Of a DNA stretch of 33,771 nucleotides, positions 1 through 3,036 are shown piece by piece (the stretch's first letter is position 1; every line of letters begins with the position of its first letter). The notes below the pieces were generated by a model. That model saw only the letters and a program-made list of their open reading frames with translations. It was not told where the DNA came from and did no database searches. The DNA is from a virus (taxonomy: Duplodnaviria > Heunggongvirae > Uroviricota > Caudoviricetes): IMG/VR virus record IMGVR_UViG_3300025711_000006; one strand, written 5' to 3'. The translations under genes and the position numbers were made by a program.

Positions 1-57
1 GTCTTTCTCTTCTCGCTCAAGGGCATGTGTATTGCTTCGACTTCTTTAAGTCCATGT

Positions 58-85
58 ATTAGATCACACTTTTCTATTTTGTCAA
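58..85 (-). promoter_or_regulatory. sigma70-like promoter, leftward out of the window
   Basis: Minus strand TTGACA (85-80), 16-nt spacer, TGA-TCTAAT (-10 at 63-58, with extended TGn). Upstream context TACCCTATTGAC is shared with the promoter at 2072-2099. Confidence 0.6.
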
Positions 86-125
86 TAGGGTAAGTGCAAT
101 TAAATGCAACTTTCTCAAACTTTTG

Positions 126-202
126 TGGCACTGGCAGCGGGACTTGAACCCACAACAAACCGCTTAGAAGGCGGTTGCTCTATCCAGTTGAACTATGCCA
201 GC
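126..202 (-). tRNA. tRNA-Arg(UCU)
   Basis: Acceptor GCTGGCA/TGCCAGT+G+CCA, anticodon arm ACCGC-CT-TCT-AA-GCGGT, T-loop TTCAAGT, encoded CCA. Confidence 0.95.
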
Positions 203-343
203 AGAAATATCAGGGTTTAACGACCACTACCCCTAACGCGAATCACGCGGGCCAATGTGTGAAGTACAAGCTTGAACCTGGGCCCAGCGTCTTTGGCTGC
301 TCCATGGGCTTGCTACTCAACCAGTACCCAGGCTCTCATTGTG

Positions 344-419
344 TGGTGCATCCACTTGGTAACGATCCAAGTCCTCCAGCTTTTCAAACTGGCGCTTCTA
401 CCTAGTTAGCTTCAGATGC
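344..419 (-). tRNA. tRNA-Phe(GAA) with atypical A8 and T-loop AUCGUUA
   Basis: Acceptor GCATCTG/TGGATGC+A+CCA, anticodon arm CCAGT-TT-GAA-AA-GCTGG, T arm CTTGG-ATCGTTA-CCAAG. Confidence 0.88.
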
Positions 420-427
420 GTAAAACT

Positions 428-571
428 TTAACGGTAGTGACGGCTAATCTTGCCGGATACCGGGTGAGGTGAAGTCAGACCCTTGTTTGGGTGCTGGCCT
501 TTACCATCGGTCTTGCGTGTACGGTCGAACGGGGCATGCTCTTTCGAGGCATCGTAAGGCTTCTTAGCCAT
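428..571 (-). CDS. small basic hypothetical protein (47 aa) inside the tRNA cluster
   Basis: ATG at 571 preceded by AAAGGAAG. Translation MAKKPYDASKEH...KISRHYR. It fills the spacer between tRNA-Glu and tRNA-Phe; the longer track start (622) lies inside tRNA-Glu. Confidence 0.6.
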   Translation of the reverse strand: MAKKPYDASKEHAPFDRTRKTDGKGQHPNKGLTSPHPVSGKISRHYR

Positions 572-591
572 GTGTCTTCCTTTACATAAAA

Positions 592-668
592 TGGTACGGA
601 CGGTGGGACTTGAACCCGACATTACCCGCTTGAAAGGCGGGCGTACTAAACCTTTATACTACGTCCGT
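592..668 (-). tRNA. tRNA-Glu(UUC)
   Basis: Acceptor ACGGACG/CGTCCGT+A+CCA, anticodon arm CCCGC-CT-TTC-AA-GCGGG, T-loop TTCAAGT, imperfect T stem. Confidence 0.92.
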
Positions 669-745: not shown

Positions 746-750
746 AGAAA

Positions 751-835
751 TGGGTGAGGGCACTTCTTAATCGCGGCCCTCAGCGCGATACACACTCTAG
801 GTTGGTTCTAGAGAATCCCAAGGCGCGGGAGTGTG
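751..835 (-). ncRNA. putative structured RNA: three-way junction + H-type pseudoknot ending in CCA
   Basis: Minus strand (A)CACA-C-TCCC/GGGA-TT-CTCTAG/CTAGAG-TGTGT, then ATCGCG-C-TGAGGGC-CGCGAT-TAAGAAGT-GCCCTCA-C-CCA. Structure read by eye. Confidence 0.6.
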
Positions 836-907
836 TGGATGGACAACAGCATGGCGGCTGTATCTTCCGCCTCCACGGCGGGTGCTTTCCAATTAAGCTA
901 TATCCAA
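836..907 (-). ncRNA. non-canonical tRNA-like element (UGG loop, no TTC T-loop)
   Basis: TGGATA/TGTCCA acceptor + T + CCA, D arm GCTT-AATTGGA-AAGC, CCGC-CGTGGAG-GCGG arm, T arm ACAGC-CGCCAT-GCTGT. Confidence 0.6.
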
Positions 908-973
908 CTCGATTTGAAGCCCAGCCTTTACGCACCAATGCACAGACTAGTAGTTTAAATGGTGGCTTCAAAT

Positions 974-1049
974 TGGCAGACCGACTAGGATTTGAACCTA
1001 GGATACGGGAGTCAAAGTCCCGTGTGATAACCAACTTCACTATCAGTCA
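974..1049 (-). tRNA. tRNA-Gln(UUG)
   Basis: Acceptor TGACTGA/TCGGTCT+G+CCA, anticodon arm CGGGA-CT-TTG-AC-TCCCG, T arm CTAGG-TTCAAAT-CCTAG. Confidence 0.95.
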
Positions 1050-1060
1050 ACTGTAAGGTT

Positions 1061-1368
1061 TCTTGTGAACAGCAGCCCAGGGCGTCGTCAGAGTCGATAG
1101 CTACCCACTCATCAACCTTGTATCTGGGATTTTAAAAACTTTGGCCTTTGCACGTTACCTGTTTAAAAGGTTACTAGTTCGAGCTTTGTAACTTTACTGG
1201 TTGAACGTTGAACGTTGACCTTAGTCACTGCGTTCGAGTTCCTTGTCGCAAAGGAGACTCCCCAAAAATGGCGGGGAATTTATCTATATGATTACATACC
1301 AGTAATGTTAGAGGTGATCGGCTCACCCCCAGAAGCCCAGCTAGTTCAGACAACTCGCTGCCACAAGA
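1061..1368 (-). ncRNA. putative ~308-nt structured ncRNA with an internal 7-9-nt periodic repeat tract
   Basis: Five nested long-range helices join the two ends. Internal hairpins and an 11-unit AA(C/G)-ending tract lie at 1139-1219. No credible ORF on the transcribed strand. Sits between the stop codon at 1379 and tRNA-Gln. Confidence 0.7.
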
Positions 1369-1378
1369 GAAAACTGCT

Positions 1379-1996
1379 TTACGCTACTTCGATAATCGTC
1401 TTAGCGTTGACTTCACTCAGGGCGAAGTCCACTTCGAGAAGGAAGCCATCTAGCTCTTCCTGCATCTTAGTGATAATATCGTCCAGGCGGTTTGGGTCCA
1501 CCAGAGCTGCCTTGTGGCGAGCTTCATATGGGCCTGCTACAGCCTGCTGGTCCTGCTCAGTGATCTTGGCGTCACGGCCATACGACTGAGACAGCAGGGC
1601 GTCGATGCGCTGTTGTACTTCGACGTTCTTTTGCTCGACAATAGCCGTGCCCTGGTTCTTCTGGGTCTTGAGCTGTTGGAGCAGTTGTTGTTCCAGAACG
1701 ATCGAGGACTTACGCTCGATGGCTTCGGCCACGGTCATACGCTGGTTAGCGATTTGAACGGTGGTAGTCGCATTGCTGCGAACGATGGCCGACTTCAGGG
1801 CTGTACGCTGGGCAATAAGGCCCTGGACAGACTGAAGGTTGCTGGTAAGGATCTGCTCGGCTTCTTGAATGGAGCCTTTGCCGGTGATCTTACCGCCTAC
1901 GGAAACTGCAATGAATTGGGCGCCTGCACCGCGTTGAATACGGTCGTTGAGGCTTTTAACCTGGGCGAGGGCACGGGTTACGGAAATCTGGGTCAC
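1379..1996 (-). CDS. all-helical coiled-coil protein, DIP1984/'septicolysin'-like family (recognised from memory)
   Basis: GTG start with AGGAAG RBS. Motifs ISVTRALAQVKSLNDRI, AIVRSNATTTV, MTVAEAIERK and DFALSEVNAKTIIEV, with long heptad-like stretches. Confidence 0.8.
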   Translation of the reverse strand: MTQISVTRALAQVKSLNDRIQRGAGAQFIAVSVGGKITGKGSIQEAEQILTSNLQSVQGLIAQRTALKSAIVRSNATTTVQIANQRMTVAEAIERKSSIVLEQQLLQQLKTQKNQGTAIVEQKNVEVQQRIDALLSQSYGRDAKITEQDQQAVAGPYEARHKAALVDPNRLDDIITKMQEELDGFLLEVDFALSEVNAKTIIEVA

Positions 1997-2013
1997 TTAT
2001 ATGTCTTCCTAAT

Positions 2014-2042
2014 CTTACGTTCTTACGGACTTACGATCTTAC
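2014..2042 (-). repeat. 4x GTAAG at exact 8-nt period in the leader of the coiled-coil gene
   Basis: Plus-strand cttac at 2014, 2022, 2030, 2038. Confidence 0.85.
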
Positions 2043-2071: not shown

Positions 2072-2099
2072 ATAATACACGATTCTCATGCCCGGTCAA
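2072..2099 (-). promoter_or_regulatory. sigma70-like promoter for the coiled-coil/ncRNA/tRNA operon
   Basis: TTGACC (2099-2094), 16 nt, TATTAT (2077-2072), followed by a 5' hairpin TTGCCG/CGGCAA (2045-2059). Confidence 0.65.
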
Positions 2100-2589: not shown

Positions 2590-3036
2590 TTACGCGGCGT
2601 CCTTAGTGGTGCGAGGTGCTTGTGATATTGCTGCGTTGTCTGCGACTTCCAGGGCTAGAAAATGCTCGTCAAAACTTTCAGCCCTTTCTTCGTAAAGCTC
2701 AACCACCATCCAGCGTCCGTCAGGCATCTTCTGGATAGTGCTTACTGCTCGGCCTTGCCTCTCCACTACCTGCAAGGAGGTGGGCAGTGCTTGCTTGGGG
2801 CTTCGGCGCCCTTTCTGCATTGCGGCACTTTCGGCAACCCTTTTTGCTACTGCATAACTTGGTAATTCGTCATGGATGATCTTTTTATACACCTCCACCA
2901 CTGTATATTTACCGTCAGGCATTTTCATAATCGTACTTACCGCACGACTAGACTTGTAGCATATCCTCAGCCCGAGTTGCTTATCTGCAATTTTAATCAC
3001 GGGCTTAGCGAGAATACTCTCTGCTGTTTTCGTCAT
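2590..3036 (-). CDS. hypothetical protein with an internally duplicated ~45-aa domain
   Basis: RAVSTIMKMPDGKYTVVEVY (aa 31) and RAVSTIQKMPDGRWMVVELY (aa 96). Confidence 0.75.
   Translation of the reverse strand: MTKTAESILAKPVIKIADKQLGLRICYKSSRAVSTIMKMPDGKYTVVEVYKKIIHDELPSYAVAKRVAESAAMQKGRRSPKQALPTSLQVVERQGRAVSTIQKMPDGRWMVVELYEERAESFDEHFLALEVADNAAISQAPRTTKDAA

What the first reader, a model, noticed from the sequence alone, without database searches (positions are those of the whole stretch)
1061..2042. Candidate protein-RNA system: coiled-coil protein gene followed by a ~308-nt structured RNA displaying a periodic repeat tract
Seen: directly after the stop of the 205-aa helical protein, the transcribed (minus) strand forms five nested long-range helices. 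They are TCTTGTG/CACAAGA (1368-1362/1067-1061), GCAGC/GCTGC (1361-1357/1076-1072), GTTGTC/GACGAC (1354-1349/1089-1084), TAGCTG/TAGCTA (1343-1338/1103-1098) and TCTGGGG/TCCCAGA (1333-1327/1129-1123). These enclose short hairpins (ATTAC/GTAAT, TTCCCC/GGGGAG, TCCTT/AAGGA) and a weakly pairing tract: GTCAAC GTTCAAC GTTCAAC CAGTAAAG TTACAAAG CTCGAAC TAGTAAC CTTTTAAAC AGGTAAC GTGCAAAG GCCAAAG. That is 11 AA(C/G)-ending units with spacings 7,7,8,8,7,7,9,7,8,7, followed by TTTTTAAAATCCC. The RNA ends 11 nt before tRNA-Gln, so RNase P processing could release it. Recalled, not verified: the protein resembles DIP1984/'septicolysin'-annotated coiled-coil proteins, which I associate with similar AA-periodic downstream regions. 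Inference: an oligomeric ring binds one repeat per subunit, in the manner of TRAP, forming a phage ribonucleoprotein of unknown function. It may autoregulate through the four GTAAG units in its own leader (2014-2042).
Basis: partly seen in the sequence, partly recalled or inferred. Interest (0 to 1): 0.92.

Follow-up and report, generated by a model that had tools for sequence, protein, structure and literature searches.

The report
Uncatalogued phage RNA partnering DIP1984-like gene
Right behind a small phage gene of unknown function lies a real, knotted, roughly 315-base RNA carrying a row of evenly spaced 7-to-9-base units. The same gene-plus-RNA pair recurs from phage T5 to Bacillus chromosomes but is in no RNA catalogue, so it is probably an undescribed protein-RNA particle.

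Summary
The observation largely holds. Directly after the 205-aa gene (1379-1996, minus strand) lies a structured RNA of about 315 nt (about 1057-1373).

- **Helices:** Helix 2 pairs in a register shifted by 3 nt. Helix 5 is not conserved. Its 3' strand (CCCAG, 1128-1124) pairs instead with CUGGG (1080-1076), a pseudoknot kept in 71 family members.
- **Repeats:** the 11 AA(C/G) units at 7-9-nt spacing are real (0 of 20,000 shuffles) and conserved.
- **Spread:** the gene-RNA pair recurs in 78 of 78 distinct phage loci (T5, Bacillus, Vibrio and jumbo phages) and in 80 of 80 bacterial loci. Rfam 15 has no match.
- **Protein:** its best structural match is 3KDQ, which I take from memory to be DIP1984.
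- **Untested:** protein binding to the repeats, a TRAP-like ring and autoregulation. The GTAAG leader repeats occur only in the nearest relative.
- **Expression:** no data could be obtained.

This scan has reported the same gene-RNA pair before on other DNA (T5-like phages, bacteria).

Verdict: a real member of an uncatalogued, widespread RNA family tied to one protein gene. Function is unknown; a ribonucleoprotein is most likely.

The parts
2072..2099 (-). Promoter-like site TTGACC-16 nt-TATTAT for the gene-RNA-tRNA transcription unit
   Evidence: Consensus scan, 10 of 12 matches. Relatives have TTGACA-N17-TACAAT at the matching place. Function not tested.
2014..2042 (-). Four GTAAG units at 8-nt spacing in the 5' leader, just before the Shine-Dalgarno sequence
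   Evidence: Read from the sequence. Shared only with the nearest relative L006 and absent from 10 other relatives.
1379..1996 (-). Gene for a 205-aa helical protein (PHROG 1491; distant DIP1984/DUF6847-like fold)
   Evidence: ORF. PHROG 1491 E 7.7e-67. AlphaFold2 pLDDT 90.9. Best PDB match 3kdq. 3551 clusters in the 50%-identity library at E <= 0.001.
1057..1373 (-). Whole structured RNA (about 315 nt), from 6 nt after the stop codon to 8 nt before tRNA-Gln
   Evidence: Conserved full length in 13 relatives. No Rfam 15 match even at E <= 5. Pairing fits the gene-sense strand only: 95.7% paired with 54 G.U cells, against 81.9% on the other strand.
1356..1368 (-).
   Evidence: Covariation.
1061..1074 (-). 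P1, 3' strand: 1067-1061 pairs with 1362-1368 and 1074-1069 pairs with 1356-1361; U1068 is bulged
Evidence: In distant phages P1 has quite different sequences but stays complementary for 12-20 bp, flanked by C|GAA(A)A and GCU|G.
1349..1354 (-).
   Evidence: GC/AU and UA/CG exchanges.
1084..1089 (-). P2, 3' strand
1338..1343 (-).
   Evidence: Up to four pair types per position.
1098..1103 (-). P3, 3' strand
1230..1337 (-). Variable region with local hairpins. Some relatives carry a T-arm, a YrlA-type tRNA-like module or a whole tRNA at this place.
   Evidence: Not alignable beyond close relatives. T-loops at matching positions in about 10 loci, and tRNA-Thr nested in L068. YrlA model 44.5 bits in phage RAY, with a gathering score of 69.
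1139..1220 (-). Periodic tract: 11 units ending in AA(C/G), spaced 7-9 nt, followed by UUUUUAAAAUC leading into P5
   Evidence: Family-wide spacings peak at 7-8 nt and their multiples: 49% of spacings are 7-9 nt, against 14% in shuffles. The stretch from just upstream of the tract (window 1222) to P5 is 91-105 nt in 34 of 37 members.
1124..1128 (-). P5 pseudoknot, 5' strand (CCCAG)
   Evidence: Pairs with 1076-1080. 99-100% paired in 71 members, with flanking positions unpaired. It is the only helix RNAalifold finds in 35 diverse sequences.
1076..1080 (-). P5 pseudoknot, 3' strand (CUGGG), between P2 and P1 and next to the invariant GCUG
974..1049 (-). tRNA-Gln, first gene of the downstream tRNA array. 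Its 5' processing would set the RNA's 3' end.
   Evidence: ARAGORN and Rfam. The processing step is an inference.

Best explanation
**Shown**
- Positions 1057-1373 (minus strand) encode a member of a large, uncatalogued family of structured RNAs that almost always sits directly 3' of one protein gene (PHROG 1491, with a DIP1984/DUF6847-like fold).
- A long closing stem (P1-P3) and a 5-bp pseudoknot (P5) tie both ends of a stretch of about 95 nt that is predicted to pair more weakly than the closing stems. It is built from 7-9-nt units with a conserved A-rich core.

**Inferred**
- The RNA is made as the tail of the gene's own transcript. It is freed at the 3' end by RNase P cutting at tRNA-Gln; in relatives a terminator does this job.
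- It assembles with several copies of the protein encoded just upstream. Each heptad would offer one site, and the conserved basic N-terminal half of the protein would be the RNA-binding face.
- The particle would be self-contained, because no third gene is conserved next to the pair.

**Speculative**
- Its task concerns tRNA or RNA surveillance, or counter-defence. In phages the pair sits inside tRNA arrays, and some members carry tRNA-like modules.
For: - **Structure:** covariation of the closing helices and of P5. Pairing is strand-specific through G.U pairs.
- **Periodicity:**. Conserved tract length.
- **Phage loci:** an iterated nucleotide profile hits 77 of 78 distinct phage loci at the expected place and nowhere else in 254 kb on both strands. 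The 78th locus was confirmed by eye.
- **Bacterial loci:** 79 of 80 by profile, the last by covariance model.
- **Whole genomes:** in five whole bacterial genomes the model finds the gene-adjacent copy each time. One further match is a partial copy with no gene.
- **Neighbours:** bacterial copies are flanked by unrelated housekeeping genes.
- **Start of the RNA:** in the 14 aligned Pseudomonas-phage sequences it starts 5-25 nt after the stop codon, with no promoter or terminator between.
- **Protein charge:** the N-terminal half has net charge +1 to +10 and the C-terminal half -4 to -11 in all 50 aligned members.
- **tRNA link:** tRNA genes lie within about 1.2 kb, always on the same strand, in 40 of 78 phage loci.
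Against: - No binding, expression or processing data exist here.
- Strict gene-RNA neighbourhood would also follow from a purely cis-acting 3' element.
- The protein has no recognised RNA-binding domain and no net charge overall.
- Predicted unpaired probability of the tract is only 0.41, against 0.24-0.25 for the closing stems, so it may fold on itself.
- tRNA neighbourhood is rare in the bacterial loci, 6 of 80.
- The genome has neither RtcB nor a Ro60/TROVE gene, so the link to RNA repair rests on analogy.
Confidence: 0.5

Rival explanations
1. RNA-only machine or scaffold, in the manner of ROOL and GOLLD. The RNA folds, and perhaps self-assembles, on its own. The neighbouring protein is only co-expressed, for example as a chaperone, a processing factor or an unrelated passenger.
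For: - The genomic habit matches ROOL and GOLLD: phages and prophages, often near tRNA islands, with tRNAs sometimes inside a linker (PMC12286853).
- Here tRNA arrays neighbour 40 of 78 phage loci, and tRNA or tRNA-like inserts occur in the variable region.
- The RNA is elaborately structured, with a pseudoknot.
Against: - ROOL and GOLLD have no fixed protein neighbour (PMC12286853). Here the same gene precedes the RNA in every full copy examined.
- At about 315 nt this RNA is much smaller than GOLLD, many members of which exceed 800 nt (PMC12286853).
- A long periodic tract with conserved A-rich cores looks more like a binding array than a folded core.
Confidence: 0.2
2. Cis-acting 3' untranslated element. 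The structure controls stability, termination, translation or processing of the upstream mRNA or of the downstream tRNA precursor, and has no life as a separate RNA.
For: - It is always on the same transcript, starting a few nucleotides after the stop codon.
- A terminating ribosome would overlap the 5' strand of P1.
- It ends at a terminator or a tRNA.
Against: - About 300-400 nt with a conserved pseudoknot, a length-conserved periodic tract and optional tRNA-like modules is far more than known 3' stabilisers need.
- Primary-sequence motifs (GCUG, AAAUC, C|GAAAA) are kept from Pseudomonas phages to Bacillus chromosomes.
- A partial orphan copy exists without the gene.
Confidence: 0.12
3. Decoy or sponge for a host factor. 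The repeated A-rich units would titrate a host RNA-binding protein or a nuclease that attacks tRNA or mRNA, independently of the phage protein.
For: - Multi-site sponge RNAs are an established kind (CsrB/RsmZ for CsrA, CrcZ for Hfq; from my own knowledge).
- The location inside phage tRNA arrays and the tRNA-like inserts fit a counter-measure to tRNA-targeting defences.
Against: - The pair also stands alone in bacterial chromosomes among housekeeping genes, where a decoy against the cell's own factors is less obvious.
- The units are conserved across hosts as different as Bacillus, Vibrio, Escherichia and Pseudomonas. The target would therefore have to be universal.
- This reading does not explain the obligatory neighbour gene.
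Confidence: 0.1
4. A DNA-level element (iterons of a replication origin, a packaging site or a recombination site) rather than an RNA.
For: Periodic short repeats and inverted repeats can mark origins. In the Pseudomonas-phage relatives a primase/helicase gene lies about 1 kb downstream.
Against: - Compensatory changes keep helices whose strands lie 250-300 nt apart.
- 54 of the paired cells are G.U, which would be A-C mismatches on the other strand: 95.7% paired on the gene-sense strand against 81.9% on the other.
- The element keeps the strand and position of the gene in every locus.
Confidence: 0.03

Closest known systems
Ro60 (Rsr) with bacterial Y RNAs of the YrlA type (Rfam RF02553; Chen et al. 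2014, PMC4201824)
   Same: - A non-coding RNA whose 5' and 3' ends form a long stem and which is encoded next to its protein partner, in bacteria and phages.
- Some family members (phage RAY, L092, L077) carry the same kind of tRNA-like module: T-arm, capped acceptor stem, D-arm. The YrlA model scores 44.5 bits, E 2.7e-7, in RAY.
- A short CGAA-containing motif sits near the 5' end of the stem. YrlA has GNCGAAN0-1G; here it is C|GAA(A)A.
   Different: - The window RNA has no YrlA match and no clear tRNA-like module.
- It is three times longer than Y RNAs (80-130 nt).
- It has a pseudoknot and a periodic tract that Y RNAs lack.
- The partner is a 205-aa helical protein, not a Ro60 ring, and the genome has no TROVE gene.
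TRAP (MtrB) on the Bacillus trp leader, and HutP on the hut leader
   Same: Evenly spaced short RNA units that could each meet one subunit of a protein oligomer.
   Different: - TRAP sites are 11 (G/U)AG triplets with 2-3-nt spacers in an mRNA leader (from my own knowledge). Here the units are 7-9 nt with an AA core, lie in a closed loop of a separate 3' RNA, and span about 13-14 periods.
- The protein is a helical bundle with no likeness to TRAP.
- No ring has been shown.
ROOL (RF03087) and GOLLD (RF01998), large ornate phage and prophage RNAs
   Same: They are phage-borne, often in or beside tRNA islands, sometimes with tRNAs nested in a variable linker. They have pseudoknotted structures and unknown function (PMC12286853).
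   Different: - There is no sequence or structure match.
- This RNA is much smaller.
- Those RNAs have no fixed protein neighbour and form RNA-only cages.
- This RNA is tied to one gene and has a periodic single-stranded tract.
DIP1984 / DUF6847 protein family (PF20935, NF038048; crystal structure 3KDQ, function unknown)
   Same: It is the best structural match of the protein model: Foldseek probability 1.0, and Z 9.9 over 149 of 152 residues. Sub-threshold profile hits also point there.
   Different: - It is about 55 residues longer.
- All sequence scores fall far below the families' cut-offs: 15.7 bits against 70.
- Profile against the 3KDQ sequence gives E 0.12.
- No function is known for either.

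Membership tests
Uncatalogued RNA family that follows PHROG 1491 / DIP1984-like genes (defined here from 78 phage and 80 bacterial loci) | Starts just after the stop codon of the gene, on the same strand | tested here: met
   The P1 5' strand begins 8-10 nt after the stop at 1379. Same position in relatives.
Uncatalogued RNA family that follows PHROG 1491 / DIP1984-like genes (defined here from 78 phage and 80 bacterial loci) | Closing helix P1 formed by the two ends, with invariant GCUG at the start of its 3' strand | tested here: met
   Window 1356-1368 with 1061-1074, and GCUG at 1076-1073.
Uncatalogued RNA family that follows PHROG 1491 / DIP1984-like genes (defined here from 78 phage and 80 bacterial loci) | 5-bp pseudoknot between the AAAUC-proximal segment and the segment 5' of GCUG | tested here: met
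   1128-1124 with 1080-1076; 99-100% paired in 71 members.
Uncatalogued RNA family that follows PHROG 1491 / DIP1984-like genes (defined here from 78 phage and 80 bacterial loci) | Periodic tract of about 91-105 nt built from units of about 7 nt | tested here: met
   94 nt in the window, with spacings of 7-9 nt.
PHROG 1491 | Profile match over the full length | tested here: met
   E 7.7e-67, residues 1-204 on profile positions 2-209 of 211. Nothing found here supports the family's label 'tail fiber protein': the gene lies among early and tRNA genes, and the model is a helical bundle.
DIP1984 / DUF6847 (NF038048, PF20935) | Score above the curated cut-off of the family model | tested here: not met
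   NF038048 scores 15.7 bits against a cut-off of 70, E 0.013. The window protein has no PF20935 hit; 11 of 50 relatives have sub-threshold hits, best E 0.0032.
DIP1984 / DUF6847 (NF038048, PF20935) | Fold of the solved member 3KDQ | tested here: met
   Top hit in both searches: Foldseek probability 1.0, TM 0.45/0.58, and VIA-align Z 9.9 with rmsd 8.0 over 149 residues. For helical bundles such Z values can arise from a common arrangement.
Y RNA / YrlA (RF02553) with Ro60 | Match to the Rfam covariance model at the gathering score | tested here: not met
   No hit in the window at E <= 5. The relative in phage RAY reaches 44.5 of 69 bits, for the tRNA-like part only.
Y RNA / YrlA (RF02553) with Ro60 | A Ro60/Rsr (TROVE) gene nearby | tested here: not met
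   No TROVE match in the 105-kb genome, which CheckV rates 100% complete.
Y RNA / YrlA (RF02553) with Ro60 | tRNA-like domain | tested here: inconclusive
   None recognisable in the window's variable region. One is present in some relatives.
TRAP-type ring on repeated RNA triplets | About 11 (G/U)AG triplets separated by 2-3 nt | tested here: not met
   The units have an AA(C/G) core and a period of 7-9 nt.
TRAP-type ring on repeated RNA triplets | Protein of the TRAP (MtrB) family forming an 11-mer ring | tested here: inconclusive
   No Pfam match to such a family, and the model is a helical bundle. The oligomeric state could not be determined with these tools.
ROOL / GOLLD | Match to RF03087 or RF01998 | tested here: not met
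   No match.
tmRNA | tRNA-like acceptor/T-arm domain plus a tag reading frame | tested here: not met
   ARAGORN finds no tmRNA in the window, and no Rfam tmRNA family matches.

The most novel reading that the evidence does not exclude
The gene and its RNA make an autonomous ribonucleoprotein of a kind not yet described, shared by large phages (including the model phage T5) and by bacterial chromosomes. Many copies of a DIP1984-like protein would line a pseudoknot-closed loop of about 13-14 heptads. The particle would act on tRNA or damaged RNA, as Ro60-Y RNA particles do, or would shield phage tRNAs from host nucleases.
Probability: 0.3. Interest if true: 0.9.

Novelty: categorically new. Interest (0 to 1): 0.8.

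Why it matters
- **An overlooked RNA gene.** If the pair is a particle, a conserved non-coding RNA gene of about 300-400 nt has gone unannotated in hundreds of sequenced phages. These include T5, T5-like Salmonella and Escherichia phages, Bacillus phage Bcp1 and Erwinia jumbo phages, and also Bacillus, Lysinibacillus and Brevibacillus chromosomes.
- **A first functional handle.** It would give one to a protein family of more than 3,500 sequence clusters that databases label 'tail fiber protein', 'septicolysin' or 'hypothetical'.
- **A tractable model.** T5 and E. coli are easy to work with, so the question of what phage tRNA islands carry besides tRNAs becomes directly testable.
- **Annotation.** The 'tail fiber' label of PHROG 1491 has no support in the evidence gathered here.
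- **Standing in this scan.** The same pair has been reported here before on other DNA, so this window adds a member and structural detail rather than a first sighting.

Tried and rejected
- **Rfam 15:** at gathering scores, and at E <= 5 on 1-2300, only the five tRNAs and chance matches appeared.
- **Full-length covariance model:** I used nucleotide profiles and a 170-position model of the tract plus 3' domain instead.
- **Duplex test of 5' against 3' ends:** with cross-locus controls it timed out once. The repeat was too permissive to be clean: own -42.1 against cross -35.0 kcal/mol. I replaced it with anchored helix counts.
- **Homodimer prediction of the protein:** no verdict. Score 0.67, but one unrelated control scored 0.49. 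It counts neither for nor against oligomerisation.
- **Expression evidence:** Presence, ends and a possible head-to-tail joint of the RNA remain untested.
- **Sequence searches of the protein against PDB chains:** nothing significant.
- **Literature:** searches for DIP1984, septicolysin, DUF6847, PF20935, T5 non-coding RNAs and phage Y RNAs found no paper that describes this RNA or links the protein to RNA. A 2026 preprint on tRNA mimics concerns other RNAs.
- **Small protein in the gap:** rejected. The only ORF is 42 aa with a TTG start (1225-1353) and lies in the variable part. The conserved part is full of stops and of indels that are not multiples of three.
- **tmRNA-like reading:** rejected.
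- **RtcB or Ro60 partner in this genome:** none found.
Full report
**What is in the window**

On the minus strand there is a promoter-like site (TTGACC-16-TATTAT, 2099-2072). It is followed by a leader with four GTAAG units (2042-2014) and a 205-codon gene (1996-1379). After only 6-10 nt come about 315 nt without a credible reading frame (1373-1057). Then comes tRNA-Gln (1049-974), the first of five tRNA genes on the same strand. No terminator-like site, and only a weak promoter-like match (9 of 12, inside the gene at 1500-1473), lies between the gene's start and the tRNA. Gene, gap and tRNAs therefore look like one transcription unit.

**Check of the observation**

The single-sequence fold recovers the long-range closing helices: -95.5 kcal/mol, z = -2.0.

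The real test came from relatives. Five Pseudomonas phages (phiK7A1, UAVern, Bitten, ventosus, psageK4) and eight distinct viral contigs carry the same gene at 50-73% protein identity. All have a homologous stretch of 290-330 nt right behind it.

- On the 14-sequence alignment, 25 pairs of the closing stem are 95.7% paired.
- 16 of those pairs show changes on both sides that keep the pair.
- No column shuffle out of 500 reaches this. Sliding the 3' partners by 1-3 columns drops pairing to 31-58%.
- 54 paired cells are G.U. On the opposite strand pairing falls to 81.9%. The structure therefore belongs to an RNA of the gene's sense.

- *Helix 2.* Because the window reads GCUGCUG, helix 2 can pair in two registers.
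- *Helix 5.* Helix 5 (1333-1327 with 1129-1123) is not kept in relatives: 59% paired.
- *What replaces it.* Its 3' strand, CCCAG at 1128-1124, pairs with CUGGG at 1080-1076, which lies between P2 and P1. Across 71 distinct family members these five positions are 99-100% paired. The neighbours on either side are 0% and 25% paired. The middle position takes UA, AU, CG, GC, UG and GU.
- *Topology.* One strand lies inside P2/P3 and the other outside, so this is a pseudoknot. RNAalifold on 35 diverse sequences of the 3' half returns exactly this helix and nothing else.

**The periodic tract**

- *In the window.* The 11 units at 1220-1139 end at spacings of 7,7,8,8,7,7,9,7,8,7. A run of ten such spacings never occurred in 20,000 shuffles of the tract; the maximum was 4.
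- *In close relatives.* The AA of each unit is an invariant column while the spacers vary.
- *Across the family.* Spacings between A-rich cores peak at 7 and 8 nt and at their multiples (14-15, 21-22). 49% of spacings are 7-9 nt, against 14% in shuffles. The heptad frame is visible column by column in an alignment of 35 distant members.
- *Length.* The distance from just upstream of the tract (window 1222) to P5 is 91-105 nt in 34 of 37 members: 94 in the window and 105 in T5. The distance between the two P5 strands is 50-54 nt in 29 of 37.
- *Pairing.* The tract is predicted to be less paired than the stems, but not free: unpaired probability 0.41 against 0.24-0.25.

**How far the pair reaches**

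- *Phage records.* The protein has tblastn matches in 740 phage records, 716 of them nearly full length. They include T5 (gene T5.085), many T5-like Salmonella and Escherichia phages, Bacillus phage Bcp1, Vibrio phages, 145-kb Klebsiella phages and Erwinia jumbo phages.
- *Four distant phages.* In T5, Bcp1, Cody and RAY the annotation leaves a gap of 360-480 nt right after the gene. The gap shows the same A-rich periodic tract and, in T5, complementary ends.
- *Profile search.* A nucleotide profile started from the Pseudomonas-phage RNAs and iterated six times hits 77 of 78 distinct loci behind the gene. Run over the full loci (254 kb, both strands), it hits the expected place 83 times and nothing elsewhere. 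The one miss, a G+C-rich locus, has the tract, the AAAUC motif and a complementary P5 on inspection.
- *Closing helix.* In distant members P1 has unrelated sequences yet stays complementary for 12-20 bp. It always abuts C|GAA(A)A on the 5' side and GCU|G on the 3' side.
- *Bacterial genomes.* 80 loci (Brevibacillus, Bacillus pumilus group, Lysinibacillus, Solibacillus, Paenibacillus, Clostridia, Sericytochromatia and others) encode the protein at 32-45% identity. 79 have the RNA by profile. The 80th has it by the covariance model R1, E 2e-11.
- *Bacterial neighbours.* In Bacillus altitudinis and a Lysinibacillus chromosome the neighbours are a homocysteine methyltransferase, permeases, a subtilase and a methyltransferase. 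These are not phage genes.
- *Whole genomes.* R1 finds six matches in five whole bacterial genomes. Five are the gene-adjacent copies. One is a partial copy (tract plus P5) after a dapdh gene with no protein gene nearby.
- *Family size.* The protein family counts 3,551 clusters at E <= 0.001 in the 50%-identity library.

**The protein**

- *Family matches.* Pfam and NCBIfam give nothing above threshold. PHROG 1491 matches at E 7.7e-67. Its label 'tail fiber protein' has no support in the context or in the model.
- *Model.* AlphaFold2 with 50 sequences gives a confident model, pLDDT 90.9. It has long helices plus four short strands from the N terminus, the middle and the C terminus.
- *Best solved match.* This is 3kdq, an uncharacterised Corynebacterium diphtheriae protein: Foldseek probability 1.0 and E 4.6e-3, and Z 9.9 against 7.5 for the next entry. 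I take 3kdq to be DIP1984 from memory and from earlier notes of this scan. A 'Septicolysin' entry appears among the AlphaFold DB matches.
- *Sequence support is weak.* NF038048 gives E 0.013, PF20935 is sub-threshold in 11 of 50 members, and the profile against the 3kdq sequence gives E 0.12. Family membership is not established.
- *Charge pattern.* A conserved split is the only hint of a nucleic-acid face. In all 50 members the N-terminal half carries net +1 to +10 and the C-terminal half -4 to -11.

**Links to tRNA**

In 40 of 78 phage loci there are tRNA genes within about 1.2 kb, 149 in all, every one on the gene's strand. In the window the RNA heads the array.

The variable region of some members holds a T-arm hairpin (L007, L008, L011, L013). 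Others hold a module with T-arm, capped acceptor stem and D-arm (RAY, L092, L077), or a complete tRNA-Thr (L068). In RAY the Rfam YrlA model matches this module at 44.5 bits, E 2.7e-7, below the gathering score of 69.

YrlA RNAs are the tRNA-mimicking partners of bacterial Ro60, encoded next to it in bacteria and phages (PMC4201824). This genome has neither a TROVE gene nor RtcB. Only 6 of 80 bacterial loci have a tRNA nearby. The tRNA link is thus a habit of the phage copies, not a defining feature.

**The leader**

The four GTAAG units are real, but they are shared only with the closest relative, L006, which has three to four. The other ten relatives have a promoter about 35 nt before the start codon and no such units. 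Autoregulation through them is possible in this lineage, but it cannot be part of the general mechanism.

**Most likely mechanism**

*Shown:*
- A conserved, pseudoknotted RNA of the gene's sense.
- A length-conserved periodic tract closed into a loop by P3 and P5.
- Near-exclusive pairing with one gene, in phages and bacteria, with no third conserved partner.

*Inferred:*
- The RNA is the 3' part of the gene's transcript. It is trimmed at the 3' end by RNase P here and ended by an intrinsic terminator in relatives.
- It assembles with several copies of the protein along the tract.
- The long closing duplex (20 bp in T5) could also be a processing site that frees both ends at once. That is conjecture.

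*Odds:* I put about 0.5 on a protein-RNA particle of this kind, and about 0.15 on the specific TRAP-like ring with one unit per subunit.

*Rivals:* an RNA-only assembly like ROOL or GOLLD (0.2), a cis-acting 3' element (0.12), a decoy for a host factor (0.1) and a DNA element (0.03).

The homodimer prediction gave no verdict.

**Known or new**

Rfam 15 has no family for this RNA. The searched literature holds no paper on it or on an RNA link for DIP1984/DUF6847.

Earlier notes of this scan describe the same gene-RNA pair on other DNA: T5-like phages, candidate-phyla and gut bacteria, and jumbo phages. Those are unchecked AI notes. I re-derived the pairing, the T5 case, the 3KDQ likeness and one pseudoknot independently here. 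I could not test their claim of a head-to-tail joined RNA.

The window is therefore a further, well-resolved member of a family that is new to the catalogues, not a first sighting within this scan.

Noticed in passing
window 746-973 (minus strand): A 228-nt stretch between tRNA-Gln and tRNA-Trp has no tRNA call. Other first-reader notes on this window propose a pseudoknotted RNA (751-835) and a tRNA mimic (836-907) there. Rfam gave no match in it at E <= 5.
   Followed up: no
window 2590-3036 (minus strand): The 148-aa ORF contains an internal duplication: twice a segment of the form RAVSTI.KMPDG...VVE.Y. It has no Pfam or PHROG family. It lies just upstream of a small helix-turn-helix gene (2229-2525).
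   Followed up: no
L189:1501-1662 (Lysinibacillus sp. RS11 chromosome, minus strand): An orphan partial copy of the RNA (periodic tract, AAAUC motif, P5-like pairing; model R1 E 2.2e-8) lies after a diaminopimelate dehydrogenase gene. It has no DIP1984-like gene and no 5' closing strand. It is probably a decayed remnant.
   Followed up: partly
L067 and L087 (both from one 349-kb viral contig): One jumbo-phage contig carries two copies of the gene about 157 kb apart, each followed by its own copy of the RNA.
   Followed up: partly
L068:1938-2014; L022:2247-2310; L092 and L077, about 100-190 nt after the stop codon: The variable region of the RNA can hold a complete tRNA-Thr (L068). It can also hold a permuted tRNA-like module of the YrlA type: T-arm, capped acceptor stem, D-arm. 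The tRNA insert parallels the tRNAs nested in GOLLD linkers.
   Followed up: partly
window 1355-1357 and the matching site in distant loci: [quoted passage not shown] The likeness is too short to weigh.
   Followed up: no
protein P0220 (474 aa): One library protein matches the 205-aa profile in three stretches. It looks like a tandem or fused form of the family.
   Followed up: no
window 1-663: These bases lie off the 105,402-bp viral record that holds the rest of the window, and the record ends at window position 664. The gene-RNA module therefore sits within about 700 nt of the record's end, and the tRNA array runs across it.
   Followed up: no
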